Of a stretch of 64,000 nt of DNA, positions 2,961-62,700 are shown piece after piece. Position numbers and translations under genes: made by a program. The stretch lies in contig OZ237736.1 of NCBI GenBank assembly GCA_965178125.1, forward strand, positions 992,001 to 1,056,000. The letters are read 5' to 3'. Position 1 is the stretch's first letter; each line of letters begins with the position of its first letter. The notes below the pieces were generated by a model. It made no database searches. It had not been told where the DNA came from and worked only from the letters and a program-made list of their open reading frames with translations. The DNA comes from Bilabrum cf. latius (lineage: Eukaryota).

Positions 2961-3114
2961 ATTCGATTGGAACTGTAAGCAGGCGATCTGCCTTGTACAA
3001 CCTTACGACCGAGCTGCTGAAGCCCGTTCGCCGCACTTGCGGTTCCGGCTTCCCGATAGCCACTCATGGCCGAATCCTTCACCACACGGAGCAGCGCTTC
3101 GCGACACAGTTATA

Positions 3115-7767: not shown

Positions 7768-7903
7768 TTCCTACCCCTGGCTTGCGCGACGCAAACGGGT
7801 GTTGCTGATGGTCTATTGAGCTGTTTGTGGCGCATATCATAGGATTCCCAACTACTCTACTATTTTAAACGACCTTTTGTCCAATGCTGTGCAACAACGA
7901 CGG

Positions 7904-9859
7904 TCACTGGCGCCCCCCATCGCTCGATTCTGCATCGATCTAACCACCCTCAGCCTGTTCAGCGTCACCTGACCTCTGCGCCATTCGCTTCCTCCTCCTT
8001 CTCAGCGACCGCCTCCTGCTAAACACGGGGTCTAAGGGAGACCCAAGGGCCTGTGCCGCCAGGATCCCACGTGCTAGCGCTGCATCATCCGGTGTGACCA
8101 GGCTCGAAACCCTCCCTTGCTGACCGAGCCTGCCCGTGCGACCAACTCTGTGCAAGAAGGACACGGCAGATGATGCAAAGTCCAGCTAGATCACATGGCC
8201 AACCTCGGTGGTGTCCAGCCCTCGGGCGGCAATGTCCGTGCACACGAGCACTTTGAGGTCGCCTTGCAGGAACCGCGCCATCGCCGCCTGCCTTCGAGCC
8301 GCCCCGATCTTCTTATGAAGCACAGCCACCGACAGATGGGGAGCACTCGACCGAATCTGCCGCAGCGCAGCGTTGGCTGATGCCACCGTGTTGCAAAACA
8401 CCAGGGTTTGGGGCATTCCCGCTGTATCGAGCTGCGTCAGTGCGGTGGTCTCATGCACCAGCTTGGTCGCCTTCAAATGAACCTCTATCTCAGTCGGATT
8501 CGACCCATGCCTGACTTTCCCCTTCTTTTTCCGCCTCGCATCCGCACGTACTGATGGAAGCACGATTTCTTCTGACAGCCTCAATATCTCGTCCCTATCA
8601 ATACTCTGTCCTTGCTCAGTGCTTGGTGGCGCTGTGGCTGGGTCACTAGTGGTCCCCACCACCGTACCATCCGCGGCAGATCGGTTTTCTGAGTCGCTAA
8701 TCAGTGCTGTGATTTGGCCCCCTAGCGCTGGGCTGATGCTGGGTTTGCCGTCGACCAGCCCGATGGGGTCATCGCTCGTCGCAGTAAGGAGGGCAGGCAG
8801 CAGGCGCAGCTTTGCCGCCTAGATGCAGTCGTGTCTCTCTGCCAAGAGCGCCTCTCTCTGGGCCATGAGCGCCAGGGGATCGATCCCCGCCGGCATGATA
8901 CCATCCTCCAGCTCTGCATGGGCATCGGCCTGCTCGTCGGGGCCGCTCCCGTGTGGCGGCTGCGCGTTGGCGGTACCCGCCACTATCCTGAGTGCCCTCT
9001 CGTCCCCAAACAGGGCCTCGTCCACTTCAATTGCACAGTACTTGTGCGCTGTCCGCTCCGACATGGAGTGCTGCAGTCCGGTCTGCACCCACGTGGCGTC
9101 GGGGAAGTTGCCCTGAATGAACGAGGTCGCGCTGGAGCTTCCCGCGTCCGGCACAGTCGCACCACAGAACACTGTTTGTAGAATCTGGTTTCGGGCCTTC
9201 GCTGATTTGCTGCTGCGGCTATGCCGGCCTTTCACGAGCCATTCGGTGACATCATCCGAGTACTCGCCCGTCAACAGGAGGTCGGCTTCGTCCAAGACCA
9301 CAGTGCGGAGCAAGCGCAGCCGAGACTGCGAGATGTTTTCGCGCAAGGCTTTCGGCGTAGCCACAAGAAGCGAGCACAAGTCTTTAGGGCGCGGACCAAC
9401 GGCCCCGTACGTTGGTCGAATCGCTTCGGTCATCCACGGAAAGCACTGCTGAGCAACTGCTGTGACTTGAAGTACAAGTTCCTAGGTTGGTACCAGCACA
9501 AGTGCGCTCGGTTTGTATAGATCCACTACATCAAGTCTCTTCAGCATGTCTACGATTGGGGCAATGTATGCCACCGTCTTGCCAGAACCAGTCTCCGATG
9601 CTAGCACTGTGTTCCCGCCTTTCAGAATTGCAGGAATCCCAGACTTCTGAATCAAAGTTGGCCTCGCTAGTCCAACAGCTGTCAGTGAATCGCATACATC
9701 TTTTGATAGACCAAGGCTAGAAAATGCTGTGCCAGGTTCAGCGAACAGCGTGGTGTTCGGCGTCTGGCACGCACGTTCAGAAGACCCATGGAAGCCCCTC
9801 CGTGCGCACCATGTCATTGGCAGCAGGCGTAGTCGGTGGAATCTAGTCATTTTGCGCAT
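7904..9859 (-). CDS. DEAD-box RNA helicase, probably organelle-targeted (DDX28-like); 4 in-frame TAGs
   Basis: Q motif PTLIQ, SETGSGKT, PT*EL, LDEAD, TDIAARGLD and HRVGRTGR all in one frame. TAGs at 9482, 8819, 8186 and 7940. TGA at 7904-7906. Arg-rich N-terminus. Confidence 0.9.
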
Positions 9860-10004
9860 AATTTATGTAGAATACTGGAAAACCATTCCACAAAGGGTGC
9901 AACAGGAGGAAATTCCATGTTTTTTTCGCGAAGATGCAGCGCACTGCAGCAATGCTAGCGACGCAGGGACATTCCCCTCAATTTCGGTGATTGTACGAAC
10001 GAAA

Positions 10005-13000
10005 ATGGCCAATTTAAAGGCAGGTACAAGTGATATTGTATCATTGGCTTCGGCTGAAATCGATGTTAGTAACCTTTTATGCACCATTAATGTTTGTAGT
10101 TGCCAGGTTGCTCCAACGACTAGATTTGCCCCGTTTACTGTGCTTGTCCATGCAGCGGCTCTTCCGTCAAATATCCGGTGGATTCACCAGTGATTTAGGT
10201 GAAAAAGAGTGGCTGTCGGCTGTATCTACATCTATAATCCCAGTGAGGCGATCTTGATGTTCTGGTCATGATCAGCCAGCTCGGTGGAGATACACTGATT
10301 CAGCCCCCCACCAGCATACTCAACCTTCGAGCCGCAGACGTACTCCAGTAAAGGGACTATCATCCCGATATTTCATGCGGTTCGTGATGCGGAGAGCGAT
10401 GCTAGCTCAGGCCGCATCGGACGGGCGGCGTTCGATGCATTGCTTCGCACGACTGCTGGGGCAGTGTTTTAGAACAGTGTGAGACCATTTGGCTGCTAAA
10501 GGTGCGACAAGCATTGGCGTTTTATCACGCGCTACACTCCCTATTGCGCTATTTAGCCTTCGCAGGCAATGCGGCGGATCGTGTCCGATGTAAACGGCGC
10601 CCAGCACTTACTCCTGTACCTGCTCGATGCTCAAGGCACCATATTTCCACAAAGCAGGGCATACGTGCAGCGAAAACTGCGAGAGGGGGTCATGCAAGTT
10701 CCATCTCGCAGCAGAGACGTCCACAAGATGGTGCATGATGCTCTCGAGCTGGACCAGGACGAGAGAGGTGCTGCTGCCCCTGCAGCCTCAGCCTGGCCCC
10801 AGGCCACGTCAGCCGCAGGGACGGGCGATTCTGAACAAGTCATGTAGACGGCAACTGCAGAGCGAAGTAGAAGCCCCCTGACAGCATTGCCGCTCTCAAA
10901 AGAGGCTAAAGCCCTGTCTCGAACAAGCACCCCCAAGCGATCGCGCAGCCGAGCTGGGTCCCAAACATTGGATGGGCAGCTCGGCACTTCTGCTGCCTCG
11001 CCCCCTGCAGCTGTGCCAGAAGAAGGATTAACTCCGCTTTCCATGATTGTCTCAGACAGCGACGACTCCGATGGGGGTGGAATTCGCGCGCAACCGCGAC
11101 GTGGTGCTGGATAGGCTCGAGAACAACCGAGGAAGAAGAGCGTGCGCCGATCCGCAAGTATGCTGCGCTCGCCTGTGCCAGCGTCAGGCGCTAGGGTACA
11201 CATAGATCAGCGCGCACCCATAGGCTCTGCTAGTGGACTTGCCTCGCCTCCAGGTCAGTGGCCGAGGGCAGGGCCTGCGAGAGGCAGCAGCGGAGCGACG
11301 CCAGCAAGGCTACCAGACAGGGTGCCTGCCCCGCCCAGCCTGCCACTGGCCCCTGCCTGTGATACTGATGGCACGCACACAGTTGCAGATCTTCCTACGA
11401 CGAGATCAAGAGGGAAGGCACCCAAGTCGCGCCCGCCTGCCACTCTCCAGCCGAGGCTGGCCACGAGTGACACGGTTGCTCGTGGGCCTCGGCAGCGAGG
11501 GCCTCGTCCTGTGCTCGCACGTGGAATGACTGGCGTGCTGGGACACAATGTATCATAGAGCGGTGCTTCCGCAGCTCCAGCGAAGGTGGGGCAATCTGCT
11601 TCAAGGAGCAGGAGCAGGAGCAGGAGCAGCCAGCAGTCAGTGGCTGCTGCCGCCGCCGCCCTTGCGGATGTTTCAATGGGAAGAAGATCCAGCAGCTAGC
11701 GGCACCAGCGAAAAGCAGCGAAACGCTCAGAACACGCTCAGCATTAGGACAAAGCTGCCTAGTATCGCGTGGTGGCAGGGGCATCTCCTCGCCAGAGCCC
11801 TACTGCTGCGGCAGCACCGCACGCTGATTCAACAGCAAACTGTGGCCTGATTCAAGCAGGGAAGCAGCCGACGGCTTTTACTGGTGATGATAGAATGTAG
11901 GTACTGCGGGGACGAAGCATCGGCCTGCAGCAGGATGACGTGAAAGTCAGTGTTGGTGGTGCATCGTACGATGGTTCCGAGCGAATGCCGCACGATGGGG
12001 CTGAAATCCAACTCGATGACGAAGCAGGCTCTAGGACTAGCTCGACCTTGCTCCATCAGGCTGGTAGCGCACCAATCCATGCCGGTCCAGCGAAGCCAAG
12101 GGGCAAACACACACGAGCACAGCCGACCTCCCGGCAGTCCCGGCAGAGGGGGTCTCGAATCACGGGCGACTTGCTAGCGAACTCCACGAGGATCCGAAAA
12201 GGCGCGATCGAGGCAATGATGGTCAAGCTGCTTGCTATCTACTGCAATGGGAATAAGACCAGTTTCCGGCGGGCAGTCGCTGCAGGCCCCGGCGCAGAGA
12301 GCAAACAGGGCGACTTGGAGCCCGACACGGGCAGCCTTGCGGGACTCTCTGAATTTCGCCGACTGTGCATCGATGCGGGCTTGGTCGGGCGTGGGGGCAC
12401 TGGCGGAGGGCGCGTAACGACCGGTGACATTGACACAGTGTTTCGGTCCGCTGTTGCGCGGTCAGCTGGAGTCGGGCATCTCGGGAAGCTACAGATATGG
12501 AAGCAGAACAGCTTTACGGTGGAGACTCAGGGGCGTTCGATGCTGCACCTTCGGCTCAACGCCAAGGGTTTTCTAGAGGCGGCTGCGCGGCTTGCTCGCC
12601 GTAGGTACTGCGCTCCCTCGTGGGCAGATGCCCGTCCGTCCCACTCTGATGACCGCGGCAGCGATACCGAGGAGGGGCATGCTGGGCAGCTCTCGTCATG
12701 GGAGAAGTTTCAACGTTGGAGGCAGCTTGGCCAGCGCAGTGTTCACGCCCGGGAGATATCTCCATCGATTGCCAACAGACTTGCGGTCCTTCAGCACTGG
12801 TTGCCCCTTGCAGCGGCATGCGGTGTGGATACAGATGTCCTAGAACACATCGCACTCCCTCTGTATGCAGCCGAGACGAGTCCAGCCATGCTTGACGACG
12901 GAAGTTCTTCAGCGTCAGGGAGCCAGCAGTCACCTACAGGAGGAGATGTGGGCATGGAAGCAGAGTCAGCTGTGTTGGCTGCACGGCAGCACATTGAACG

Positions 13001-16000
13001 CTCGCTAGTTGGCATGCGATGGAGAGGCCAGCCCCTCACCAATGCAAACAACTAGGAGTCCAAGCAGGACTCAGATGACGATACTCCAGCGGAGCCCGGG
13101 CCTGTGACACAGTTACATGGTGACACTCACAAGGGTACATCGTCAGCAGATGCTTCGAGCCTAGCAGCAGCAGCAGTATCAGCGGCACAGGCGCACCTTG
13201 GTAGCGTGCTTGGAGCATAGGCTCGTAGGCAACTGGATATTGTTATGGCAGACTCTGCCGAATAGTCCATCGAAGAGCCGGAGCAATAGGGTGCGTCTAG
13301 ATCCCCGCCTCGTCGATAGAAACGGTAGCCGCATAGTGCGGCTGTATCACCCGATCGCGTGCCGGAGCCTTTATACGCAAGCAGGCTCCGCCGCCAGCAT
13401 CGATCGCGTCAGCGGGCTGCAAGGCGCCCGCAACCAGTCAGTGCGCGTGCAACTAAGCCGAGACAGGCTTCAGCGACGCTGCAAGAACAGCAACAGCGAG
13501 GTACCATCGTTTACGCGGGACCCGCAGCTCGTGCCCAGACAGCCCTGCGCACGGCAAAGATCCACCTCGGCGAACGAGACGGGTACCAGAGCGATGGCGC
13601 AATCATGCGGCTAGCAGAGAGGGAATTGGGCCTGTACGCCGCAAGGGCCGGCAAGCACGACCCGTACAATCTGCACCGCTCGGTTGGGGTGTACGCTGCG
13701 AGATTTGCAGCAAGGTCGCTTCGCAAGCATAGGGTGAGGCAGGAGCACGAAGCTCGCTCCCACGGCGCCCATCGCATTCATCGGGCTGAGTCCGAGCATC
13801 ATGAGCAGCGTGCTGCAGCTGACAATGTGACAGAGGTGCCTCTGTCCTTGGCGGACGATGGGGAGGATGGCAAGTGGTCCGTTGTGTCTGCACCCGCGGA
13901 CGAGCCCGGTGCATCGTTGTCTGGCGTCCGAGCAGTACGCGCGCCGTTCGAAGAAGATGGTGACACTGGCCGAGCGTTCGGAGGATGGCTGACCACAAAC
14001 GCATCCAGCATGCCGGATGCCACCCGCAGGCTAGATCTAAGTGGAAGAATGCGGACGGACAGGCAGAGAAATGCTGCAAGCTAGCTCACGCAGAAGCTGG
14101 CCAAGACTCCTGGGCTGGCGCTAGAGGTCGCTCGGCTCGATCTTCGAGACAGTATGAAGGGTACGGGTAAACTCGCCACGTTCTCGAAGGGAACCAAGGT
14201 ATGGAGGTCAGACTTCGAGGCAGACATCCCATCGGGGGCCGGTGGCCTATTCAGTGAGACCATCGAGGAGCCCAGGCGCAGCATCCCAGTTGCAGGAATC
14301 GGATTTGCGGATGACCAGGGCGGTGATGAGCCAGTACCGCACTATGCTTAGCCGACGATGTGCAGTCCAGTGCCCACTATGAAGCGAGCTACTCGCACGT
14401 TTGCCCTCGCGCACAATTTGGATTCTCCTCGAGACGTGATCTCTAGAGATGATGAGAAGTCTGGTGCCGTGACAATTCGTCCGATAGGTCCAGCCTCATC
14501 GCGCACCAAGCGATCCAAGAGTGTGGCTGCTGCGTCTCGAAGAGCCACAGTTAACTTGGCTGATCTGGCCAGGTCGATTGGGCTCCAATCGATGAGGGCT
14601 CCAGCTAGCGATGCAGATGCCTCCCAGAAGGATCCTAAGTCGGCCAAGCTGCTAAAAGGCACTGATTGGGCCGATGCTTCAGCCGCAAGCAAGCAGGGTG
14701 GGGCCGCTCCTGAGACGAGGAGTCGATCCGCATCCCCCAGAAGCAGAGCAAGGTCGAGCCCGCCGCGCAACGCAGCCCTATCAGACAAGCTGTTTCCAAG
14801 ATCGAAGCAGCACCAGGGGTTCTCGCAGGAGGGTTTCATGCCGAAGAGGCGAAGGGTACAAACCGACCTTGGGATCGAGCTCGGGGGTGCAGTGCCGCTC
14901 GAAGATTCCCCGCTTGCGGCGAGCATTGCCCGAACACAGCAGGCCCTCCTGTCATCGGACGATGAGGCAGGCGCGAGCACGCGCGATGAGTCCAGACAAC
15001 GAGCCCTAGCGTCTGATAGACGCACGAGAATTCCGCGATCGCTGGCTATGGAGGCAGCTGTGCTCTCACCAGCCGTATCTCATGCGACCAGAGGACGCCA
15101 TGTTGCCGAGCAACGCCTTGCCAACGAGCTTGCAGCATCTGTTCAGCACAAGACACCCCGTATCAATGAGGCACAGGTTCCTGGGGATCAAGCCACCTTT
15201 GCAGACTCGCTCCGCTCTGCAAGTAATTCCGATCGGACACCCGCAGAAAGTACATCGCCAGGGTCTGCAGCGCCATCGGGGCGCAAGCCCTCACCAGAGG
15301 TGCAGGCGATTCGCAGGGCAATCCTTGGGCAGTCAAGCGGATTACGCGATCGTGCAGCAGCTGCAGCGTACAAAAACGCGCTTGAGCAGTCGGGTGTACC
15401 AACTATGGCTGCTGTTGCGAGACAAGCTGATCCGCACTCCAAGCACATGGCTGAACCACTGCCGCCCACAAGCCCTCCCAACGACCCAGGTACATTGAAG
15501 GATGTACATTCATTGGTGGAAAATCCTAGTCTTGCCTGCTTTGAAGGCAAGCAGTCACCGAACGTACCGAGTACTACTCAGACCGAGGGGCGTGAACACA
15601 AGCATGCCAGTTCAGAAAAGCTTGACTGTGATTCCGGTGGACTTGACAGAAACGCCGATAGACTTGACGGGGATAGCGGTGACGTAGCACCATCGTCACA
15701 TGCGTCACAATCGGATTGGATGTCGGAGCACTAGGCGAGAAGCACATCGCCAGGCAAAGAAACCGACAGCTCGCCATCTGATGGTGCCCCTGCAAGCACT
15801 ACTGGTATTGCTCAAGCGCAGTCCGGCGAATTTGCGAGCCCAAGCTCCACATCGGGACGACGGGCGAGCGGAAGACACGTGGTCTGGGCAAGCCAGGTGG
15901 ACGTCCAGGAAACTGTACAGTCCGATGACGACGATGCAAGCGTTCCAACCGCAGGATCCTGGAATGAAGCCTCCGCTGCGACCCACCGCAGCTACCGAAG

Positions 16001-18918
16001 CGAAAAGCAAAGGATCCGGGACAGCTCGCCGGCTGCTTCATCAGCAGAGATGAGCACGTTCGGCTAGAGTACCCAGGCTCGTGCTAGCCCGGTGGCTGTC
16101 CCTGAGTTTTCTGGTGCTGAAGCAAACGACGAAGAAAAGAGTCCCTCCGACAAGGTTTCAGAAGCAGCTTCGGACTAGCCCTCATCGAAGCCAGCCAAGA
16201 CCCCGAAGGGCAAGGGAACGTCCAAGGGCACCTACACCGCCAACTTGCCGACTTCAGAGCGAGCGCAACGGTTGTGGCAGCGGCAATTCCAGTCTACGTC
16301 ACCAGTGCCGATGCAAGGACTTCAAGCAGGAGACAGCCCTGCAACAAAGGCCACGCCGCCGTCCGAGTCGCAGGCTGCATCTCACGCTGCTGCAGAGGCT
16401 AGCGAGGTGAAACCTGTCGCACATGGTAGCACCAACTCCAACGGAGAGGCACACCAGCAATAGGCCACGATTGTGATGTAGGATTCCCCGCGGTCTCCGA
16501 GTGAAGGCGATGCTGATTTACCGGAGCAGAAGGGTGACGCCGGCGCCCTGAGCCCCACCTCATTGTCGGTGCCGGGTCGCAAGCAGCCAGTAACTCCCAA
16601 CATCCCCTAGGAACAAGTCGGCGATGCTGCCGCAGCGGTTGTGACGCCATCGCCCGTGACGATGCGGAGCAGAGTGTACTCGAGGCGAGTAGGCGCAAGC
16701 GCACCTGACAGCCCTGGAACGCTGCCGCGGACACCAGCCGAGAGGCAGGCACCCAGCGGCAAACAGATGACAGACGTCAAACCCTCTGATGGCGATTCAA
16801 GCGCTAAGCGTGCAGTGCCGCAGAACCCGACCAACCTCCAAGTCCACATAGGACCAAACGGCGTGACGGTGACTACAGGCTAGTCTGGACGGACAGGAGC
16901 AATGCCAGAAGCTGCCAGCATAGATCAATAGGACGACGGTGGTACCGGCGATAGGAATGGGGCAAGCTTGCGACAGACCAAGGAGTCGTTCGCCTCAGGT
17001 CTAGGCGCAGGAGCGTCGTGGAAGGGAAGTGCCAAGGTGAAGATGATGCCCGATGGAGGCATCGTGGTGGAGACGGACTCATCGGGCAGCGGTGCTGGCG
17101 GTGCAGGCGCGTGGAATCCGCAAGGACAGCATGGCACGCAAGATCATCACGGCGCGCGGCGCATGGCCCACACAGGCGAACCGACAGGCCACCACCAGTC
17201 TCTGTTTCCAGCTGGCATCTCTCCCATGGGTACTCTGGCTCCAGCCTCTGCGAATCCACGCATTCGACGCGAGCACGGCACATGGCGTCGTAGCGGTAGT
17301 GCAGCTAATCGGGATGCCACAGAGCCCCACAGGAGGCATTGGGGGCTTGGAACAGCTCCTGCTGTGCCCTCACGACGCGGGGGCCCTATGGAGGCAGGCC
17401 AATCCGATCCACGTGGCGTCTCCTGGAGGCGCACACGGAGGGGCCAGTCGAGGTAGACTCCCCACAGCAGAGATCGCGCGTATAGCGCGGAAGGCGGTGC
17501 TCCATCGGACGATGTAGGAGCGATGTAGTCGCCACCACATGCATCGGATGATCACGCGAACAGTGCAAGTGGGCGCCAACCTGAGGCCGCAGCGCCTCCG
17601 CACCGTCGGCAGCGATCTGCCAGCGCGGTGAGATCTCGGCAGCTGCAGAAGAGGCCGGCAGCTGACCCCGCTCTTAATCGACAGATCTCTGAAGCTCAGA
17701 GGGCCTATCGACTGTACGGCAGTCCGAGGAGAAACACTGTCGAGGGTGCGGAGGAAGAAAGGGTGCAAAGGCGCAGACAACGAAGCTCGTCGGTGTCTGC
17801 AGCCCCTCAGAGCAGGCAGACATCCCCGCGCCTTCAAGCCCTGGCTGAAGCACGACGCAGCGTCTCGCCATACAGTGCCGCTGGTTGGCATCAGCGCCAC
17901 AGCCCCATATCAACAAGAGTTCCCCCATCAGGATCACCCCTTGGTGGGCGCACGGGAGACGCCGGAGCTGTTGTGTCGCAGCTATCCTCACCACCCTCCT
18001 CTAGAAGCCATCCAGCAGCTTAGAAAAGCACGTCGCCCATGCCCTCTATGGAGCAAGTTGCGGGGCTGCTGCGGGAAGCCATGGCTCCATTTGGCGCGGG
18101 ACTGTCTCATGAACATGGGAGATCGGGCCGTGTGCCAGAGCTGCCGGACGAGATGTCGTTGTTGGCAGCAGGACAGGCTGGTGATGATCCTCAGCAAGTG
18201 CCTCAGGAAGCCATGGGGCTAGGATCCCTGGGTCAAGGTCGGCCAGCCGCAGAGAGTACCGCCACCATACCGACAAACTCAGAATTTGGCGCCACTCGAA
18301 GCGAGGAGAGTAGCAGAGTGCCTGCAGTCGCCACGGTGGGGCGTCGCAAGCCGGTCAAGGAGCGGAAGGGCAGAGATTTTGCTTGCAGTCGAAGAAGGAA
18401 TGCCCCTGTCGCAGCGCTGCACTCAATGGTTCCGTCTCTGGCAAGCGGAAGTGGAGCCATCGAGGCCGGTCTGACAGGATCGCGTGTTGAAGGAGGCGAT
18501 ACCGACGAGGTCATCGACCTGGGCAGAGCACCCCCACCGCCGCAGCTAGGGGCACCCCCTGCCCTGCAACAGCCAGGGGTGATCGATAGGGCTAGGGGCA
18601 GGGCTGCCAGAGCTCATCAAAGTCACACCAGGGAACAAGGGTCCCGGGAGCAGAGCCCAGGGTAGCGAGGCTCACCGCCACGATCCAGCCAATCAGCTGC
18701 CAGTGCATCACCGCTGGGGACGCCGGAACGAAGCGGACCTGGGGCGGCAGCAGTGGCCTTCCGTCGCCGCCCGCCGCCAGCTCTCCGCATGCCCTCTGTA
18801 GACGGATGGGGCGAAGGCCTCGGAGCCTAGCTCTAGCTCGGGCGCAGCAGCGATGTGTTAAGACGTGCTGCCAGCTCCAGGTCAGTGAGCCCCCTACAGA
18901 GGCATGCTGGGCATGATG

Positions 18919-18950
<32 letters not shown>

Positions 18951-19478
18951 GCTGAGTCACCAGCACTGCGTAGGGCGGGTCATGATGTGGGCATAACCAG
19001 GAGGGGGCTTTCTAGTGCAGCGAAGCGAAGGCGAGCATCTGTGTCTCGATTGGGGGAGGGCCAGCGTCTGGGGCAGCAGCGAAGTGGGGGTCGGGCAGAG
19101 TCCGTGCCTCGGCTGGTGTGGCGGGGTGAAGCTGCGGGTGCCGGCGGGCTTGGAAGTGGCGTGGCAGAGTCACGAGACGGCGTGACGCCTCGAGGGGTGC
19201 ACATGGGGCATGGGCCCGGGGGTGCAGGTGCAGTGCACGGCGACGCGTCTAGCATAGAGAGCAGCAGGGCGAGCACGCCTTCCGTTGCGGCCCGGCGGCG
19301 TGCGATGGCACCGCGTCCAGGCCGGTCGCCGAGCGCTGCACCACGGCTGCTTGCAGCAGTCACGCCTGGAGGCTCGAGGTTCGGTATACAGGCCAGACGG
19401 CCAGACAGCCGCGCTGCACCGCGCATCCGGAGGGTCAAGGTAGAGGTAGAGCATTCGCCTGGGTTTGGAGAATTTTGA
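10005..19478 (+). CDS. Very large (about 3000 aa) low-complexity protein with a p25-alpha/TPPP-like segment; predicted introns 10024-10099, 10243-10337 and 10479-10565
   Basis: ORF-track fragments from 10569 to 19478 share one frame and are separated only by TAG (more than 25). I saw no TAA or TGA until TGA at 19476. The three 5' GT-AG introns are phase-compatible. RVTTGDIDTVF...FLEAAARLARRRY resembles p25-alpha helices. Confidence 0.72.
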
Positions 19479-20017
19479 GACTTGAAAACGAAGTGATTTC
19501 TTCAGAACGAAGCGTGAGACAAGCAAAAATGTGCGTGTAAGCTCGTAGAATCACACATTCGGCCACCCACCCAAAGGTTGGTGCGATCAGACAGCGACGG
19601 AATGCAAAGCGAGCGTGGGGGCAAGGTACGGGACCGCGACGAATCGAAGGCAGTACAAACAGACGACGACACTAGGCACATATTCGAGAGTTCCCAGGGT
19701 TGCTCACTGTACACATGGCTCCGAGGAAAATGGCAAAGCCGAAGGCTCATCTGCAGCCGGTCAAACCGGGGAGAGCCAACGGCAGCCAATCCTACGCATG
19801 TATCCAGTTTGCACCCTGTTTCCATCTCTAGCAAGTACCTGGCAAGTGCCATCGTCGCCCTGTACTATCGAATCGCGCAGCCTCATTCCCCGCAATCTCC
19901 ACGACACCAGCGCCCGACACATGTCAGCGACATCAATTTTCCTTTCTAGAAGAGCAAAGATGACCGAACAGCTCCGCAACGAACTTGACCGCGAGTGTCA
20001 CTTCAGCATAGAGTCCT

Positions 20018-20855
20018 TTATCCCTTGAGCTGGTCCACCAGCCAGTCCAGGCCCTCGTACAGGCCATCGCCGGACGTGGCGCAGCACGCCTGCACCCACC
20101 AGGTCCTGCCGCGCAGAGACTCCAGGGCCAGCTTCTTCGAAACGTCAGACGCTGACAGGGCCTTGGGCAGATCCTGCTTGTTGGCGAACACCAGAATCAC
20201 AGCCTCGCGCAGCTCGGCCTCGTTCACCATCTTGTGCAGCTCCTCGCGAGCGTCCGTCATACGGTCGACATCGTTGGAGTCCGTCACGAAGATGAGGCCC
20301 TGGGTGTTCTGGTAGTAATGGCGCCACAGGGGGCGGATCTTGTCCTGGCCCCCGACGTCCCACACGGTGAACGAGATGTTCTTGTACTCGACAGTCTCGA
20401 CATTGAACCCTGCGAAGCAAAACAGCAAAGGCAGACCGATCAAACGAGTGCGCAATGAACACCAATCTACTAAATACAAATGATTGTTCAAAGTATGGCG
20501 TGGCAGACCGGTTGGGCAGGCAGCTGTGATCAATTTGCTGCATCGAGAACGGCGGCCGTTTCGAGGAAGCTTCCAGCACATCGGGCAGCAACCGCTTTCA
20601 AGCTCACCGATGGTAGGGATGGTGGTCACAACCTCTCCCAGCTTAAGCTTGTACAGGATGGTAGTCTTGCCGGCGGCGTCGAGGCCCACCATGAGGATGC
20701 GCACGTCCTTCGAGCCGAAGAGGCGAGACCAGAGACTGCGATGGCGAATAGGTATCCCGATTGAGGCACTGATCTTGTTTAGATGGATCGGGTGTGTAAG
20801 ACAGATAATTATTTGAACACTGGAAGGTTGCTTACCCGGACAAAGACATTCCCAT
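20018..20855 (-). CDS. ARF1: ADP-ribosylation factor (ARF1-like GTPase), copy A; introns 20736-20835 and 20410-20607
   Basis: [52 protein letters not shown]. Ends in TAA. Confidence 0.95.
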
Positions 20856-21379
20856 GGCTGTAAACGATCTTGATATGTGATTCGTGTGGCGTGGCGTCGC
20901 AACTTTTAGTCGCGCCAGAGACAAACTATTCTCCTCTCGTCGCCCCTTATTGGGGTCATTGCTTGGAAAGTTCCCGGAAAGGCACAGAAGCGAGCAGAGG
21001 AAAACTGAGCTTGTGGCAAATCCTAGGCACCAATGCATAAATAGCATATGCTGGCTTCAAATTGACATAATACGAAAGTCCTGACTGGATCACCTGGGGT
21101 CACTTCGAAGGTTGATGCGAGCTGGCGTCCTTGCTGATGAGCACGACGAAGGCACCCGAGCAGGTGGGTAGTTTCACGCCTCTAGTACTCGGTCAAACCG
21201 AGGAGGTCCACGAATCTACCCAATCATTGGCTGGTACGTTCATCTGGATTGCAGCGATGTCCCATTAGGCAAGCCTGTGGCTGCTTGTGTCGTCCCTTGT
21301 TGGACACCCCGACATCAATTTTCCTCCCCATTGAGACCATGGGTCTACCCATCAAGACTATCAAATGATCGTAGACCAG

Positions 21380-22297
<918 letters not shown>

Positions 22298-32263: not shown

Positions 32264-34652
32264 TCACAGCCCCTTCGCGATCTCGCGCTTAGACTTGAGC
32301 TCTCCGGGCACTGTCGCGGACTCTGGCCGGTCGCTCAGGGGACCTCCACGCACCTCCTCGAGGGCCGCTCGCAAGTCCCGAAGCGAGTCCTCGATGCAAT
32401 CCAAGAACTTGTCGTTGCCCAGGCCGTACGACGCCACGTGGAACTGCACGCCGCGCTCGTCGTTCCCGTACCCAATGCCGTAGCTCGTACGCGACACGGG
32501 CCCGAAGCCGCCGCCATCGAGGGCCGGCGAGCTCAGCGTGCTCGTGCTCATCCGAATGTCTCCCATCTTGGCGTAGGACGAGTCCTCGAAGATGGCGGGC
32601 ATGGGGATCCCCTGCAGCTCGGCGTGCTTGCGCAAGGCGAAGAGGTGCCTATCCACGCCCTTGCCCATGAGCGCCAGCCTGCTCGTCTTGGAGTGCGTCG
32701 CGACGGCGGCCTCCAGCGCTTCCACCCTCTCCTTGGCGCTCGTGCTCGCGTCACCGAAGCACCGCACCATGGCTGCGGCCTCGGGGGACGCGCTGCGGAT
32801 CGTCTCGGTCCTGCCGTGCTTAAACCCCGCCGTGGAGGCGGACTCGTAGGTGGAGGGGACGTACCCGTGGGCCTTGTAGTGGGCCAGCTGCAGCACCATC
32901 TGCATGATTCCGTCGGGCGACAGCTTGGCCTGCTTGATGTCCTCCTTGGTCAGTGAAGGCGTCCTGTACACGTCGATGTCGCACTCTCCCATGATCCTAT
33001 CGTGGTCCTTTTCGGCCTTGGCGATGGCACCCAGCACGTCCTGAGGGAGGCTGTCGAAGTCCACCCGGCGCACCACTTTGCCCAGGTCTGCGGGCACCTC
33101 GGACTTGGGCCTGGCGGGCTCCTTGGTGGTTGCATCGTGCACCTCGTTGAAGAAGTTCAGCACCGCCACGCCGTCGCCCCACGCGTGCTCCCAGGCGATC
33201 CCGGACCGCCCGTTCTCGCACACGATCAGGTTGAACGACTTGTCGAACCATCGGTTCCTTCCCTTGCCAGCCAGCATGCACTCGCTCAAATCCTCGTGGG
33301 TGTCAGGAGACGCATCGTCCAGGGATAGGGCGAAGAGGGCCCCATCGATCTCCTGAAGGCTCGCTCGAGCTGCAGGGTCCTTGTCCATCGAGGCCCTGGC
33401 GGCGCCCCACTCGTCACGATGCATTGTGGTCAGGGCCGCCACGGGCGGCCCGGGCTTTCTGGACGCAGCGTCTGCCTTGATCGCCCTGATCTGGGCCTCG
33501 ATGGCGGCGGCGGGCAGCGGCCGAAGGTTCTCAGGCTTGCCCGTGCCCCGCTCCGCGATGCCGAGCGCTCGGGCGGGGGTGTCCTCATTGGCTTTGGCAT
33601 CCTCGAACAACTGCAGCTTGTAGGCGTGCGTGCCCACGAACACGGCGGCGTACGCATCGTGCTCCACGGACCTCAGCTCGTCCCTGCCTTGCGCCACGGG
33701 GATGCGGGTGGAGCAGAAGAGGCGGTCGTACTGGGACATGTCGAGCGGGTAGGCGCCCGCGGCGTAGGCGGCGTAGTAAGAGACCTTGGTGGGGAGGGCA
33801 GCCGTGACATTCTCAAAGACAGGGTTCTTGGAGATCTCCGGCTTGGTGTGGAAGACGTCGGGAAGTAGCGTGCGGTTCTGGTACGAGACGTAGAACCGAG
33901 CAGCTGCTCGGCAAAGGTCTGCGGCTCGTACGGCCTGCTCGTTCTTGGCAGGATCCGCATGAAGCTTCCATGATAACTATGGAGTCAAGTTTAGCGGGAA
34001 AGCGTCTCGGTTGTCTAGATACATGTCGTACCAGAACCCTGCAATGTACGACGTCTCAGGATGCTCCTTGTCCCAGGCAAGTAGCGCTTCGTGCAGCTTC
34101 GGGCCTTCATTGGATGCAAATGAATCAACAGCTGCTTCCGTCTTCTCGTACTCGCTATCATCAACAATGGCCCGCACGAATTTCTTGTACCTGCGAAGGA
34201 GTTGGATCGCGCACGAAGTAGAAGATTGTCTCTTTTTTTTAAATAATTTTGTCCGTCGTTGGGCTCGGCCTCGATACGACAACAAGTTTACTTACTGCTT
34301 AAGCGTATCATCCAGTTCGGGGATAGGGAGCTTGGGCATGGAATCCTAGAAATGCAGAGTTGGGATCGTGGAGCGGTGCAGATGAGGGTCGGCCGCATCA
34401 GTCACAGCGCCGGACATGCCACCAAAGAATCGAGCCCGACCACCGGCTGATAGATAGACTTTCTTAGCAACAACGCCCTGCGAAAACTGACATGGGAGCT
34501 GCAATGATTCGCAGAACGAGATGTTCAGTACTCCGGCAAAAAGATGTTGCGGGCGCAGCATCGATCGCATGACTTGGCGAGCGAAGTCTGGTCCCGCTCA
34601 CACGAGAAGCTTGCATAATTCCGCGCATAATCCTTGCAGAGGCTCGCTGCAT
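32264..34652 (-). CDS. CPT2: Carnitine O-palmitoyltransferase 2-like acyltransferase; intron about 34191-34293; start uncertain (34652 or 34570)
   Basis: PTLHF*DSMPKLPIP, FWYDMYL, PLDMSQY, NRWFDKSF, EHAWGDG, TYESAST, GRTETIR, GVDRHLFAL, GGFGPV. TGA stop. Confidence 0.9.
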
Positions 34653-49694: not shown

Positions 49695-51467
49695 ATGATT
49701 TCATTTGTTTCGTCGGTGCTGACAACTGCAGTGGCTCTAGTTGCAGTTGGAAGCGGGGCGATCCTAGCCCCGCCGAGCTTCCCGTGGTCAAACTCCAGGG
49801 GCGTAAACATACACTATACCTCCGGCGTGCCTGGGGAGACTAAAATGCTCGCTGAAGGGTTCGATGGGATCAGAATGGACCTGCACTGGGCAGAGGTCGA
49901 GACGGTCAAGGGCGTCTACAACTTCTCAGAATTTGACACTCTGGTTCAAGATCTCGAGAAGAATGGCTTGCAGACAAGGTACCTCATCCTAGACTACTCG
50001 AATGAGCTGTACTGCAAGGGCGGTGAAGCCCCGTAGACCCCAGAAGAGCGCTCCGCGTTCGCGAACTTCGCGGTTGCAGCTGCCAAGAGGTATAACAGCC
50101 AGGGAGTCGTCTTGGAGCTTTGGAACGGTGAGTATCGCTCGTTTGGTGATTTTAATAGCCTCATGAATGCCTCAATTTCGTAAATGCTGCTACGGGGACT
50201 CGCATCTCTCGCAGAACCGAACGGTGGCTTCTGGCTCAACTCGACTGGGGCTCACGCTCCAAACGCTACCCAGTATAGCGAGCTTCTTACCACCGTTGGA
50301 CAAGCCCTCGCAACACGTGCGCCAGGCACAGTCTTGACCGGGCCCACGACGGCTGGCATGGATTTCCCATACATCTAGCAGGTCCTGGAGCGCGGCGGGT
50401 TGGCCTACTTGTCCGGCGTGTCCGTGCACCCGTACCGGCCGTCTCCGCCTGAGAGCGCCTGCTATGACTACGCGACCCTGCGATCCATGATCGCGAATCA
50501 CTCTGCTGCCAGTGGCGGTGGTTGGTCAGGCGGCCCCTCGGGTGCTGCGTTTCCAAATGGCGACCCCTGGGTGGGGGCAGGCACCAGGGTGTCCCCCCCT
50601 ACCCCCGCGGGTGTTCCCCCGGTGCTATCATCGGAGTGGGGCTACACCACGTGCACCAAGCCGGCATCGTGCATCCCCGAGCAGTCCATCAGCATTTCTG
50701 AATCGCTCTAGGCGGCGTACCTCCAGCGGCGCTTCATAGCGGACGCGCTGTGCGGAGTGCCCATGTCCATTGACTACGACTGGCGGAACGGAGGTGATGA
50801 CCCGTCGCAGCGAGAGCAAAACTTCGGGGGAGTGCTGCACGACCCCACTGGCAACAGCTCGCAGCCGTTCGTTCCCAAGCCCAAGTTCCTCGCTGCCTCC
50901 GCCTACAAGTCGCTTGTGGGTAGCCTGCAGCTCCGTGGGAGGGTCGCTGCAGACGTCACAACTGCCGCCACCGGCTCGATGCAGGCCAGCGCGCCAGGCA
51001 GCCACGAGCCATCGAATGCCACATTTGTGGCGGAATTCGCTGGTCCTCCCCGCAGTCAAACCCAAACCCAATCCTCAACCCAAGCCCAATCCTCAACCCA
51101 AGCCCAAGCCCAATCCTCGTCCTCGCTCGTGTATGCGGCGTGGACGATGGGGAGTCAGGGCTATTGCGGCACGCTGCCCTCGCACCACGATTGCGGGTTC
51201 TTCGCTATCTCTGAGAAGGAGTGCGTGGAAGGTCGTGGGTGTTGCTACACCCCGAACCATGACGGCTTGCCGTGGTGCTAGTGGCCCATGGGTGGCGGCA
51301 GCGTGCAAGCGTCCTTCGACGTGGACGAGCAGGTGCCTCAGGGAGCGTGCTTCCAGCAGCGGTCCTGGAACGGCACTGCAGAGGGCAAAGTGTGCGCGGG
51401 GGGGTCGTCAGGCCGGCAGCTGTCGGTCGAACTGACCCGCATGCCTGTCTTTTTGTCTATGGATTGA
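49695..51467 (+). CDS. Secreted clan GH-A glycoside hydrolase (GH39/GH5-like) with a trefoil (P-type) module; intron about 50128-50214
   Basis: Signal peptide, GVNIH, IRMDLHW, ELWN|EPN, VSVHPY, SSEWGY, *AAYLQR, YDW, CGFFAISEKECVEGRGCCY...PWC. TAGs at 50034, 50376, 50709 and 51279. TGA stop. Confidence 0.8.
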
Positions 51468-59771: not shown

Positions 59772-62700
59772 TCACTCCTTGGTACCAACGGTGAACATGC
59801 GGATCTGGCGAACATCAAAGAATGGCAGGTCTAGATTGCGAAGATATACTACGCTCCACAGATTGCGCTGCATCCATGCCTGGGTGTCTTCCGTAGGCGA
59901 GTACCGCTCCACAACGAGTTCGTGTGGGCGGGGCAGCACGCCGACGAGCGTGTCATCCTGGATGCAGCGAAGGACCGCCTCGTCGTCAACAGAGCCGCCG
60001 CCCGCCTGGATGAGGTTCATGACTCTGGGGCGCAGATGCCGCAGGGCCAGCTTGATTTCTCGGAGCGGAAGCATCGACTGCTGTTCTTCCAGCCATGTCT
60101 GCAGCTGCTCCCTGTACCGTCTCTGCGCAGTGAGATCAGCACCTGCCTGGTCTTCCTCCCCGTCAGCAGGGGCAGCCTGATCTTCTTCGGGTGAAGCGCC
60201 ATCAGCTGGTCGCACACCATCGGTGGCCATTGGCACAACGTCAGGAGACGTTCCTTTTCCGGCGTCTTCGCCGGGATCGCTCTGCCCATCACCGCCCTCC
60301 GCATCACTGGAGCTTGCCTCTTCGGGCAGCGGATCCATCACGTCATCCACCACAAAAGTCTCTAGCCTGTGCAGGATCGCTGCCTCCTTCACGAGCGCGT
60401 AGATCAGGTACGCATGACCATCGTACTGATACTGAATCACGTTACGAAACATCTGCAGCAGTCGCTGCAGTTGCAAGACGCTGTCCGGGCCGCGAAGCAC
60501 CTCGGATGGGTCGCCGAGAACCGTGAGCAAACTCGCAATCTTTGTGCCAGTCACCATGTGCACTCGTTTCACGAACACAGACACATTGCTGAGAACCAGC
60601 ATGAGCAGCGAATGCATGCGGCGATGGTTGCTGGAGCCGTTCACGAGCACCTTGTGCGCTGTGAGGTACAGCAGGTCACCATGGCATCCCTCGAACGCAG
60701 GCAAGCCGATCATCGGTGGCAGCTCTGCAGCTGACACAGTCTTGTTCAGCTGCACGCAGAAGCTCCTGTAGCCGCTTAAGAACAGCAGGATGAAGCAGAT
60801 TAAATGCACTGTGCCCCAGTCCTTGCTGAGCCGCTCCCTCCACAGGTAGTAGCAAAGCGGCCTGATCAAGCGGCACACATCCTCCTGCTCAACAACATGC
60901 CGAGCAAACGAACGATTCGAGTCCAGTAGATGCCACAGCAGCAAGAGGGCTTCCTGGTGGCTGCCGAGCGCCTTCATGCTGAACGGCAGTACCGTCTGCT
61001 TGCTCTTGGACGAGTTCGATAGGAACCTCACGATTGTACCAAACAGAGTCTCAAAGTCCGTGGTGTCAGTGATGCCTGCCATCAGCCCACGATACGCATT
61101 GTACACGAGCGGTCGCAACCGAGGCGAGGATTCTTGCTACAACCCGTCCTACAATGACCCGGCGCCAGCATCGGTCGAGGACCCTGCAGGCTCAGCAGGA
61201 TGATCTCTGTCCTCCCCTGCCCCAGATGCTGGACCTGCGGCAGCCTAGCCGACAGCGTGTGCACCGGGGGCCCCGTCGCCCCGCATGGCAGCCTCTTCCT
61301 CCTCCTCTGCTGCTAGATGCCTCGCGTCTTCACGGACTTTCTCCGCGTACGCCCCTGTGTCCCGCACCAAGGGCTCATCGGCGGGTGGCCGGTAGTCGAG
61401 CAGCAGCAGGAGCGCCTGAAGCGATGCATCGATGAACGGCTCCCTGCTGTCAGCCTCCATGGCAGACACGTACGGCAGCCCCCACCCTTCAGGGTCAAAG
61501 GACACCACCGTGTTGATGAGCGAGAAGAAGAGGGTGGGCAGCATGGGGCAGTCAGGGCTGATAGCAGTTTCGTACAGGGGGCACCTCGCCGAGGCCCCGG
61601 AGCCGGTGTCGACGTACAGGGGCTGCGACATGCACACGATAAGCAGGCGCAGCAGCTCTGTCCTGTTCTGTTCCCAGACTGATGACCTTGGTGGGCTCAA
61701 TGAGCGGAACACGACACCGCCAGACCACAGCAGGCTGGGCCAGATGGAGTTGGACAGGTTGGGAGCAAAGGGTGGCACCTCGCCCTGGATGACCGGCTTG
61801 GCCGGGGTTGAATCCGGCTCCCCGTCAGCCTCATCCATGCTTGCCGACTGGACATGCCCGTTCTCAGCAGAAGTGCCCGCGCTTGGTTCGTCGTCCTCTG
61901 GTGATGCCAACGCACCGGATGATGCAGCAGCAGCAGCAGCGCCGCCGCTCGCCACCCCTACATCGTCACCATCTTCGTCTATACCGGATGTTTGCTCGCC
62001 TTGCACCTCATCTGTAGATTCGTCGGATGTCTTTTCAAGGTCTTTTTGACCGCCAGATGTGCCCTCCTCGTTCCTGGCTGTTCTCGCCATGTCGGCATGC
62101 TGCTTCTTCATGGTTAGGAACCTGTCTCGGAAGAGAGCGAATTGCATGGCAGACACAGTAAACTCAGGCGTGAACAGCAGTCGCATTACACTATACACAA
62201 GGCGTTGGCCAAGGGGCGCACCATTCCCAGATTCCTGCAGCTACTGCCGCTAGATCTGCGCGGCTTCGGAGCTCAGCTGGCTGGACGAGCCTGCCGCACT
62301 CTGGTCGGGCCCGGCTGTGCCGGTGACCTCGGGAGCTTCGGCGCCAGAGTCTGCCCCGCCGCTTTCCCCCTTTGCCTATTCAGAGCCAGTATCTGACGCA
62401 GTAGCATCCTCTGTGCCAGGCTGGTCAACTGTGGTGCTCTACCCAGCCGCTGCGCTACCAGCGGCAAGCTTGTCTTCCAAGAACTGCTCGAGATAGTCGC
62501 CTACTCCGACCCAGACTTCCATAAGGTCTTCATCGTGCTGTTCCGGCGCGGTTGCAGATGAAACTGGAACACCAGCTGCCGTTTGTAGCATCGAGATTTG
62601 GTCATCCCACAGCAAGCGTTGCGTGAAGGCATCCTCCGTGTTTTCAAGCAGCACAGGCAAGATTCGAGTGAGCAAACGAACCTGCATGATAGTATTAAAT

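What the first reader, a model, noticed from the sequence alone, without database searches (positions are those of the whole stretch)
20003..20020. UAG and UAA appear decoupled: TAA is not seen as sense and ends ARF copy A
I found no in-frame TAA in any traced frame, although CAA is common and TAG abundant. ARF-A ends in TAA at exactly the position where ARF-B ends in TGA. Established: nuclear UAA and UAG are nearly always reassigned together. UAG-only codes are known from very few lineages (e.g. UAG=Gln in the fornicate Iotanema, UAG=Leu in a rhizarian, some ciliates). Caveat: this is a single TAA terminus, and an in-frame TGA follows 5 codons later.
Basis: partly seen in the sequence, partly recalled or inferred. 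Interest (0 to 1): 0.88.

Follow-up and report, generated by a model that had tools for sequence, protein, structure and literature searches.

The report
UAG reads glutamine, UAA still stops
This GC-rich eukaryote reads the stop codon UAG as glutamine but never uses UAA inside genes and still ends its ARF gene with it, a split of the two codons known from only a handful of lineages.

Summary
In 26 coding segments of 22 genes (17,326 in-frame codons) there are 121 TAG, 0 TAA and 0 TGA. The CAA/CAG ratio predicts about 34 TAA. Every TAA lying in frame inside a TGA-bounded ORF of a real gene sits in an intron or upstream of the start.

TAG is glutamine:
- It matches Q at 3 of 3 sites in a 93%-identical relative.
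- It matches the Q of the conserved CPT2 motif.
- Q is the commonest residue at two conserved helicase sites.

ARF-A ends ...LKG-TAA at 20018-20020, and ARF-B ends ...LKA-TGA at the same position. A distant relative found in a metagenome (L001: same gene order, TAG sense, no in-frame TAA) has one ARF. It also ends ...LKG-TAA. What follows there is unrelated, with the next TGA 25 codons on rather than 5. UAA therefore acts as a terminator.

UAA is a rare terminator, used by 1 of 22 genes here, while UGA ends the rest. tRNAs, eRF1 and the organism's lineage could not be examined. No close named relative was found. The code itself is known from Iotanema, Protocruzia and some phyllopharyngean ciliates.

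The parts
20018..20020 (-). TAA that ends ARF-A (after ...DWLVDQLKG)
   Evidence: Sequence. The same codon at the same position ends the single ARF of the distant relative L001. Relatives' ORFs all stop here.
20003..20005 (-). Next in-frame TGA, the fifth codon after the TAA; lies in the 3'UTR
   Evidence: In L001 the next in-frame TGA is 25 codons after the TAA and the intervening codons are unrelated. An in-frame TGA within 5 codons follows 5 of the 21 other stops.
20018..20409 (-). ARF-A exon 3, stop included
   Evidence: Translation. Intron 20410-20607 is removed in contigs of runs X5 and X8 (joint 20408>20607, CT..AC on the + strand, which is GT..AG on the minus strand).
20608..20735 (-). 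ARF-A exon 2
   Evidence: Bounded by the joints 20408>20607 and 20735>20836. Sequence.
20836..20855 (-). ARF-A exon 1 (ATG GGA ATG TCT TTG TCC GG)
   Evidence: Joint 20735>20836 in run X5. L001 has the same exon structure.
19054..20017 (-). ARF-A 3'UTR (at least about 500 nt, up to about 960 nt). It holds the motif AAAATTGATGTCG at 19940 and a small hairpin near 19755-19780.
   Evidence: Continuous contig pieces 19054-20052 (X5) and 19515-20408 (X8) with 0 other letters. Motifs.
21380..21382 (-). TGA that ends ARF-B (after ...DWLVDQLKA), in the same column as the ARF-A TAA
10479..10565 (+). In-frame 87-nt intron of the 3000-codon gene; holds the TAA at 10497-10499
   Evidence: GT..AG joint 10478>10566 in a contig of run X5. 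TAA position.
50128..50214 (+). Predicted in-frame 87-nt intron of the GH5 gene; holds the TAA at 50181-50183
   Evidence: GTGAGT...CGCAG. Removing it joins LELWN to EPNGGFW, the GH5 NEP motif. No RNA was laid here.
34191..34295 (-). Predicted intron of the CPT2 gene; its donor CA|GTAAGT creates the in-frame TAA at 34292-34294
   Evidence: Exon 1 and exon 2 each align to solved CPT2 on either side of it.
34346..34348 (-). In-frame TAG at the Q of the conserved CPT2 motif (TIPTLHF-TAG-DSMPKLPIP)
   Evidence: Aligned to Q of vPTmHyQDSlPrLPIP in 3 of 3 distinct solved CPT2 sequences.
8186..8188 (-). In-frame TAG in the DEAD-box helicase (VGHVI-TAG-LDFAS)
   Evidence: Q in 72 of 120 aligned homologues among the 150 best representatives. 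Kept in the contig piece 7879-9885 of run X5 with 0 other letters.
9482..9484 (-). In-frame TAG in DEAD-box motif Ia (VLVPT-TAG-ELV)
   Evidence: Among 54 aligned homologues: Q 19 (commonest), R 12, K 7. The more distant solved structures have R.
61137..61247 (-). Three in-frame TAG codons of the Hid1/dymeclin gene (residues 498, 530 and 534 of the ORF 59775-62738)
   Evidence: All three are Q in P0001, a 93%-identical protein of a close relative.

Best explanation
The window is nuclear DNA of a GC-rich (about 59%), intron-poor eukaryote. Its cytoplasmic code reads UAG as glutamine and keeps UAA and UGA as stops; this is the variant listed as NCBI table 15. UGA is the everyday terminator (21 of 22 genes) and UAA a rare one, kept at the ARF gene.

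Shown here: TAG is sense, stays in the transcripts and stands at Gln positions. TAA is excluded from coding frames. TAA sits at a conserved C-terminus in two divergent species.

Inferred from established knowledge (Panek et al. 2017, passages): a tRNA-Gln with anticodon CUA, which pairs with UAG but not UAA; no tRNA(UUA); and an eRF1 that has lost UAG recognition but still recognises UAA and UGA.
For: (1) TAG is sense. Six ORFs of 988-2992 codons are open only if TAG is read, and they carry real domains. Of the 53 in-frame TAG in 1001-21000, 23 lie in contig pieces of the spliced runs X5 and X8 that show 0 other letters.

(2) TAG is Gln.
- 3 of 3 TAG sites are Q in a 93%-identical relative.
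- TAG aligns to the Q of the CPT2 motif in 3 of 3 solved sequences.
- Q is the commonest residue at both conserved helicase sites, 72 of 120 and 19 of 54.
- 4 of 23 aligned TAG sites pair with CAG between the window and L001.

(3) TAA is not sense. There are 0 TAA against 121 TAG in 17,326 codons, with 19-34 expected. All in-frame TAAs of TGA-bounded ORFs are intronic or upstream of the start. L001 has 14 TAG and 0 TAA in about 2,180 codons.

(4) TAA terminates.
- L001 has the same gene order (DEAH helicase, AKR, ARF, giant gene).
- It is far diverged: AKR 72% aa and 66% nt, giant gene 38% aa.
- Its ARF nevertheless ends ...LKG-TAA, as ARF-A does.
- After the TAA the three ARF copies cannot be aligned until a UTR motif about 75-90 nt on.
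- The would-be extensions are QRTLC in the window and 24 unrelated residues, one of them a TAG read as Gln, in L001.
- Five relatives' ARF ORFs all stop at this position.
Against: There is no direct evidence of termination: no peptide, no ribosome footprints, no tRNA set, no eRF1.

Only two TAA termini were seen (window and L001), and they are one orthologous site.

TAA is used far less as a stop than composition predicts. Intergenic TAA:TGA is 97:197, so about a third of stops would be TAA, yet only 1 of 22 is (P about 0.002, my arithmetic). UAA may therefore be a disfavoured or weakened terminator.

Some TAG sites stand where distant homologues have other residues. These are R in PTRELA and N in VINYD of solved DEAD-box proteins, F in CPT2, and the P position of the sulfatase CxPxR motif. 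Also, 19 of the 23 TAG sites aligned with L001 pair with non-Gln codons, in poorly conserved stretches.

The tool labels X5 'RNA? (probably DNA)'. Its RNA nature rests on its GT..AG joints.
Confidence: 0.85

Rival explanations
1. Ordinary UAR=Gln code (table 6). Both UAA and UAG mean glutamine, UGA is the only stop, and TAA is merely rare because of GC pressure. ARF-A would then end ...LKGQRTLC.
For: 21 of 22 genes end in TGA, and a TGA follows the ARF-A TAA by 5 codons. The genome is GC-rich and TAA is the rarest of the three triplets. From memory, not from any call: human ARF1 continues ...NQK past this point, so a Q here would not be absurd.
Against: There are 0 TAA against 121 TAG, although A-ending codons make up 16-55% of every other NNR pair; P is at most 7e-10. 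TAA is common out of frame, in introns and just after stops. In L001 the same TAA follows LKG but the 'extension' is unrelated and 24 residues long. ARF-B stops at this very codon with TGA. A codon never used in 17,326 codons would have to be conserved as the Gln codon of the same site in two species whose synonymous sites are close to saturation.
Confidence: 0.05
2. UAA is nearly unassigned: neither decoded by a tRNA nor efficiently recognised by eRF1, and on its way out of the genome. This would be an intermediate on the road from UAG=Gln to UAR=Gln. The ARF TAA would be a tolerated relic.
For: TAA is under-used as a stop relative to composition: 1 of 22, against about a third expected from the intergenic TAA:TGA of 97:197. 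It is absent from coding frames.
Against: The one gene that keeps TAA keeps it in both species despite heavy divergence. Its contigs have by far the highest word depth of the stretch in the same runs: 3264 against 1.5-353 in X5, and 896 against 0-127 in X8. The tool warns that this is a poor measure of expression. A poor terminator would be least tolerated in such a gene.
Confidence: 0.07
3. The TAG-interrupted frames are not translated through. They would be pseudogenes, or the TAGs would be edited or spliced out, and the organism would use the standard code.
For: None specific. Gene callers using the standard stops cut these genes into pieces (P0001 covers only 631 of 988 residues).
Against: 121 TAG but 0 TAA and 0 TGA in frame cannot arise by decay. 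The ORFs carry intact conserved domains. The TAGs remain in spliced-run contigs with 0 other letters. The pattern is shared by the distant relative L001.
Confidence: 0.01

Closest known systems
Iotanema spirale (Fornicata): UAG=Gln, UAA and UGA stops (Panek et al. 2017, PMC5304391; abstract start and passages seen)
   Same: Same assignment: UAG is glutamine, there is no in-frame UAA or UGA except in retained introns, and UAA is kept as a terminator. UAG is a minority Gln codon in both (about 8% there; 121 of 812, or 15%, here).
   Different: In Iotanema UAA is the main stop (104 UAA against 15 UGA). Here it is the reverse (1 TAA against 21 TGA). This organism is GC-rich and encodes mitochondrial CPT2, whereas Iotanema is an anaerobic metamonad. 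Its eRF1 T32G change could not be looked for here.
Phyllopharyngean ciliates and Protocruzia tuzeti with UAG=Gln and UAA kept as stop (McGowan et al. 2024, PMC11687900; passages seen)
   Same: UAG alone is reassigned to glutamine. These are independent origins, showing that the change recurs.
   Different: The window is a 64-kb, 59% GC, multi-gene stretch with 87-198-nt GT..AG introns, which is unlike what I recall of ciliate macronuclear genomes. No close named relative was found.
Rhizarian exLh (UAG=Leu) and Scotinosphaera (UAG=Ser), as cited in PMC11687900 and PMC5304391 (passages)
   Same: UAG is decoupled from UAA, and UAA is retained as a stop.
   Different: The amino acid differs. Here it is Gln. 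Leu is a minority (14 of 120) at one helicase site and absent at the other.
UAR=Gln codes (hexamitin diplomonads, many ciliates, ulvophytes, oxymonads, Amoeboaphelidium protococcarum as reported; passages)
   Same: UAG is glutamine, and UGA is the predominant stop.
   Different: UAA is not sense here (0 of 17,326 codons) and ends a conserved gene. I considered Amoeboaphelidium as the source organism. Its proteins are in GenBank (passage), yet no named hit is close: AKR is at most 54% and ARF exon 3 at most about 80% identical outside unnamed metagenome and Logan records. The two primary aphelid papers are not held.

Membership tests
UAG-only stop-to-Gln nuclear code (NCBI table 15 type; Iotanema type) | In-frame UAG in conserved genes, at positions where homologues have Gln | tested here: met
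   3 of 3 sites are Q in a 93%-identical relative. TAG aligns to the Q of the CPT2 motif in 3 of 3 solved sequences. Q is the commonest residue at two helicase sites, 72 of 120 and 19 of 54. Against: R, N, F or P stand at some sites in distant homologues.
UAG-only stop-to-Gln nuclear code (NCBI table 15 type; Iotanema type) | No in-frame UAA in coding sequence | tested here: met
   0 TAA in 17,326 codons, with 19-34 expected. 0 in about 2,180 codons of L001. In-frame TAAs of TGA-bounded ORFs are intronic or upstream of the start.
UAG-only stop-to-Gln nuclear code (NCBI table 15 type; Iotanema type) | UAA marks homology-supported 3' ends of coding sequences | tested here: met
   ARF ends ...LKG-TAA in the window and in L001, with unrelated sequence after it. 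ARF-B ends with TGA in the same column. Five relatives' ORFs stop there. This is one orthologous site only: 1 of 22 genes here and 1 of 4 in L001.
UAG-only stop-to-Gln nuclear code (NCBI table 15 type; Iotanema type) | UAG is not used as a terminator | tested here: inconclusive
   All 22 frames run through their TAGs to a TGA or TAA, and conserved C-termini (AKR, CPT2, ARF) have no TAG at the end. A dual use near poorly conserved C-termini cannot be excluded; the helicase, for example, has a TAG 12 codons before its TGA.
UAG-only stop-to-Gln nuclear code (NCBI table 15 type; Iotanema type) | tRNA-Gln(CUA) present, tRNA(UUA) absent | not testable with these tools
   No whole genome is held. There are 0 tRNA genes in the window and in L001 and no Rfam match.
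UAG-only stop-to-Gln nuclear code (NCBI table 15 type; Iotanema type) | eRF1 N-domain altered so that UAG is no longer recognised (GTS, NIKS, YxCxxxF region) | not testable with these tools
   eRF1 is not in the window or in L001, and no organism-restricted search is available.
UAR=Gln code (NCBI table 6 type) | UAA as well as UAG in frame at Gln positions; UGA the sole stop | tested here: not met
   0 TAA against 121 TAG. A TAA terminus is conserved in two species.
Codes without a dedicated stop (Condylostoma, Blastocrithidia, Amoebophrya sp. Kv) | All three stop codons occur in frame within genes | tested here: not met
   0 TGA and 0 TAA in frame. Amoebophrya sp. [quoted passage not shown]

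The most novel reading that the evidence does not exclude
The window and the metagenome contig L001 belong to an undescribed eukaryotic lineage that is neither ciliate nor metamonad. It has at least two deeply diverged members. The lineage independently evolved UAG=Gln while keeping UAA, in a GC-rich genome where UGA has become the default stop. UAA would then survive as a rare terminator at a few genes. Such a lineage would add a new independent origin of the decoupled code and a GC-rich contrast to the UAA-dominated Iotanema, in which the order of events (UAG first, UAA later or never) could be tested.
Probability: 0.45. Interest if true: 0.75.

Novelty: new member of a known kind. Interest (0 to 1): 0.62.

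Why it matters
UAA and UAG almost always change meaning together. The few exceptions show that the two codons can be separated mechanistically, through a CUA-anticodon tRNA together with an eRF1 that tells A from G at the third position.

A further case in a GC-rich genome with mitochondria-type metabolism would add an independent data point on how release-factor specificity and base composition shape code change. In this genome UGA, not UAA, is the main stop, and a distant relative shares the code.

There is also a practical consequence. Gene callers using the standard code, or table 6, will mis-annotate this organism. With standard stops its genes fall apart at TAG, as P0001 shows. With table 6 its TAA-ended genes gain false tails.

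Tried and rejected
- **Whole genome.** None is held for the window, so genome-wide counts, a tRNA census and eRF1 inspection were impossible.
- **Protein Atlas.** The unmodified AKR ORF gave only generic aldo/keto reductase clusters and no useful taxonomy.
- **The look-up of sequencing runs.** No RNA holder is listed.
- **Pattern scans.** Scans for the ARF C-terminal peptide found 0 stretches in viral contigs and 0 in genome contigs.
- **Rfam.** 0 matches in the window and in L001.
- **Amoebophrya sp. Kv as source.** Rejected: its genome is AT-rich and UAA is common in frame.
- **Amoeboaphelidium as source.** Not supported, because no close named hit was found. The primary papers are not held, and PMC8657485 has none of the searched terms.
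- **Solved-structure alignments** of distant homologues (helicase, kinase, CPT2 exon 2) were uninformative or looked contrary for the identity of TAG. Closer homologues settled it.
- **Window-versus-L001 codon pairs.** The two are too diverged for a TAG-to-TAA substitution-rate test.
- **Literature.** Six searches found no paper describing a GC-rich non-ciliate eukaryote with UAG=Gln and UAA as stop.

Full report
**What is at the coordinates.** The finding sits at the 3' end of an ARF GTPase gene on the minus strand. ARF-A reads ...GAC CAG CTC AAG GGA TAA AGG ACT CTA TGC TGA. The TAA is at 20018-20020 and the next in-frame TGA at 20003-20005. A tandem copy, ARF-B, reads ...CAG CTC AAG GCT TGA (21380-21382), so it stops in the same alignment column. 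ARF-A has three exons (20855-20836, 20735-20608, 20409-20018). Both introns are removed in contigs of two public runs, at joints 20408>20607 and 20735>20836, which are GT..AG on the minus strand. Contig pieces run on without a break to 19515 (X8) and 19054 (X5), so the 3'UTR is long and the TGA five codons on lies well inside it.

**TAG is a sense codon.** The window is 59% GC.
- With the three standard stops the longest ORF is 619 codons. With TAG read through, ORFs of 2992, 1769, 1694, 1405, 1138 and 988 codons appear.
- These and the shorter frames carry ordinary eukaryotic domains: PIGO/PIGG, DEAH and DEAD helicases, Hid1/dymeclin, NT-C2, CPT2, aldo-keto reductase, SDR, sulfatase, LtrA, GH5 with a trefoil domain, a TKL-type kinase, mevalonate kinase and an M16 peptidase.
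- I count 22 genes.
- Of the 53 in-frame TAG in 1001-21000, 23 lie in listed contig pieces of runs X5 and X8. Those runs contain spliced forms and show 0 other letters, so the TAGs are neither edited nor spliced out. The tool labels X5 'RNA? (probably DNA)', and its RNA content rests on its GT..AG joints.

**TAG is glutamine.**
- A protein from a close relative (P0001, 93% identical over 631 residues of Hid1) has Q at all 3 TAG sites it covers.
- In CPT2 exon 1 the TAG aligns with the Q of vPTmHyQDSlPrLPIP in 3 of 3 distinct solved CPT2 sequences.
- I aligned the 150 best representatives for the DEAD-box helicase to the query. Q is the commonest residue at both conserved TAG sites. At VI-x-LD it is 72 of 120 (L 14, M 12, N 12). 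At PT-x-EL it is 19 of 54 (R 12, K 7). The query had been translated with Q at these sites, a small bias.
- Evidence against this reading: more distant solved homologues have R, N or F at TAG sites. One TAG stands at the P position of the sulfatase CxPxR motif. Of 23 TAG sites aligned between the window and the distant relative L001, only 4 pair with CAG; the rest lie in poorly conserved stretches.

**TAA is not a sense codon.**
- In 26 coding segments of the 22 genes, 17,326 in-frame codons hold 121 TAG, 0 TAA, 0 TGA, 497 CAG and 194 CAA.
- At the CAA share of 0.281, 34 TAA are expected (P of none 5e-18). At 0.16, the lowest A-share of any NNR pair in the six long ORFs, 19 are expected (P 7e-10).
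- The same DNA holds 41 and 52 TAA in the other two frames and 114 on the antisense strand. There are 7 in-frame TAA in the 20 codons after each of the 21 TGA stops.
- The segments were cut at TAA, so I checked ORFs bounded by TGA alone. In real genes their TAAs fall into three groups. Some lie upstream of the start. One lies in an RNA-confirmed in-frame intron (10479-10565). The rest lie in predicted GT..AG introns whose removal restores conserved motifs: LELWN|EPNGGFW in GH5...DDTLKQ|YKKFV in CPT2 where the donor CA|GTAAGT itself makes the TAA, and the mevalonate kinase and sulfatase introns.
- No other coding-like ORF ends in TAA.

**TAA terminates.** A pattern back-translated from the ARF C-terminal peptide found one metagenome contig, L001 (8,508 bp).
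- L001 carries the same neighbours in the same order: DEAH helicase, AKR, one ARF with the same two intron positions, and the giant gene on the other strand. It has 14 in-frame TAG and 0 TAA in about 2,180 codons.
- It is a distant relative: AKR 72% aa and 66% nt, DEAH 61% aa, giant gene 38% aa, ARF exon 3 97% aa and 88% nt.
- Its ARF ends ...CAG CTG AAG GGC TAA. It then runs GAG GAG CTT CAT GCC CTT GAC GAG TAG ..., with the next in-frame TGA 25 codons after the TAA.
- In a three-way alignment the coding identity stops at the stop codon. It resumes only at a UTR motif about 75-90 nt downstream.
- If TAA were Gln, a protein 97% conserved in its last exon would carry tails of QRTLC in one species and 24 unrelated residues in the other. 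A codon used nowhere else in 17,326 codons would also have been kept at that one site.
- The ARF ORFs of four close relatives (P0123, P0125, P0126, P0129) all end ...DQLKG. A more distant one (P0132, 83%) ends at the same position. None extends. The caller used standard stops, so this shows a stop-type codon there but not which one.

**How UAA is used.** UGA ends 21 of 22 genes here and 3 of 4 in L001. Intergenic DNA has TAA:TGA of 97:197, so composition alone would give about a third TAA stops. One in 22 is fewer (P about 0.002, my arithmetic). This is the opposite of Iotanema, where UAA ends 104 of 119 transcripts (passage). The contigs of the one gene that keeps TAA have by far the highest word depth in the laid stretch: 3264 against 1.5-353 in X5, and 896 against 0-127 in X8. 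The tool warns that contig depth is a poor measure of expression, so this is only a hint that UAA is kept where efficient termination matters. Why UGA is preferred so strongly is unexplained.

**Mechanism.** Shown: the codon usage, the Gln identity of TAG and the conserved TAA terminus. Inferred from established knowledge (Panek et al. 2017, passages): a tRNA-Gln(CUA), which cannot pair with UAA; no tRNA(UUA); and an eRF1 that no longer recognises UAG. None of this could be tested. No genome is held, neither the window nor L001 has a tRNA gene, and no eRF1 is in reach.

**Comparison with known cases.** The assignment equals NCBI table 15, which was wrongly attributed to Blepharisma (passage). 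It is documented for Iotanema spirale, Protocruzia tuzeti and two phyllopharyngean ciliate lineages. UAG alone means Leu in the rhizarian exLh and Ser in Scotinosphaera (passages). The window is a 64-kb multi-gene stretch at 59% GC with 87-198-nt GT..AG introns and a mitochondrial CPT2. I therefore judge it neither ciliate-like nor fornicate-like. That judgement draws on general knowledge of those groups, not on a test made here.

**The organism.** The lineage is undetermined. The best named homologues are about 50% identical for AKR (animals, a thraustochytrid) and about 80% or less for ARF exon 3. I considered Amoeboaphelidium, reported as UAR=Gln (passages). Its proteins are in GenBank (passage) and none appears among the close hits, so the idea is not supported. 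The two primary aphelid papers are not held. Six literature searches found no description of such an organism. Supplements were closed.

**Verdict.** The interpretation, that UAG and UAA are decoupled, is supported and is now backed by a second, distant species. This is a new member of a known but very small class of codes. Its own twist is a GC-rich genome in which UGA is the default stop and UAA a rare one. Direct proof (tRNA set, eRF1, peptides, footprints) and the placement of the organism are still missing.

Noticed in passing
window 19940 (-), 21322 (-); L001 about 3930-3945 (+): The motif (G)AAAATTGATGTCG lies about 75-90 nt after the stop in ARF-A, ARF-B and the L001 ARF, although the rest of the 3'UTRs cannot be aligned. 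This looks like a conserved 3'UTR element of unknown role.
   Followed up: partly
window about 19755-19780 (-), 21190-21210 (-); L001 about 4063-4085 (+): A second conserved 3'UTR element sits about 240 nt after the ARF stops. It is a small hairpin, CTCGG-TTTGA-CCGAG. In ARF-A one pair changes on both sides (U-A to C-G), and the loop is TTTAA in L001. With three sequences and one compensatory pair the evidence is weak.
   Followed up: partly
window 20003-22250 (-) versus L001 3060-3872 (+): The window has two tandem ARF copies whose last 98 coding bases are identical but whose UTRs differ. The distant relative has a single ARF in the same place. The single copy ends LKG-TAA like ARF-A, so ARF-B (LKA-TGA) looks like the derived copy.
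   Followed up: partly
window about 36470-36500 (-), sulfatase gene: An in-frame TAG stands at the proline position of the sulfatase CxPxR motif (ICA-TAG-SRNSFMS). If TAG is Gln the motif reads CAQSR, which departs from the proline I recall at that position.
   Followed up: no
window 10479-10565, 50128-50214, 34191-34295, about 54000-54081: Several introns are multiples of three (87, 87 and 105 nt) and stay open in frame apart from a TAA. With TGA as the only stop they therefore read through as if coding. A gene caller set to table 6 would translate them.
   Followed up: partly
window 19054-19478: The contig covering the ARF-A 3'UTR (X5, 19054-20052, word depth 668) overlaps the last 425 bases of the convergent 3000-codon gene, which ends at 19478. 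The two transcripts would be antisense to each other there.
   Followed up: no
window 1001-21000: Contigs with 0 other letters to the window occur in runs filed under three further coded organism labels from three further studies (X5, X6, X8). A relative with about 1,340 differences in 20 kb occurs in a fifth (X10). The organism seems to turn up alongside others. I did not pursue what they are.
   Followed up: no
window 7768-7903: In the relative X10 the 107 bases between the convergent PIGO and DEAD-helicase stops are replaced by 151 other letters, while both coding regions stay alignable. X10 also has a 3-base in-frame deletion at 7913, within the last codons of the helicase.
   Followed up: no
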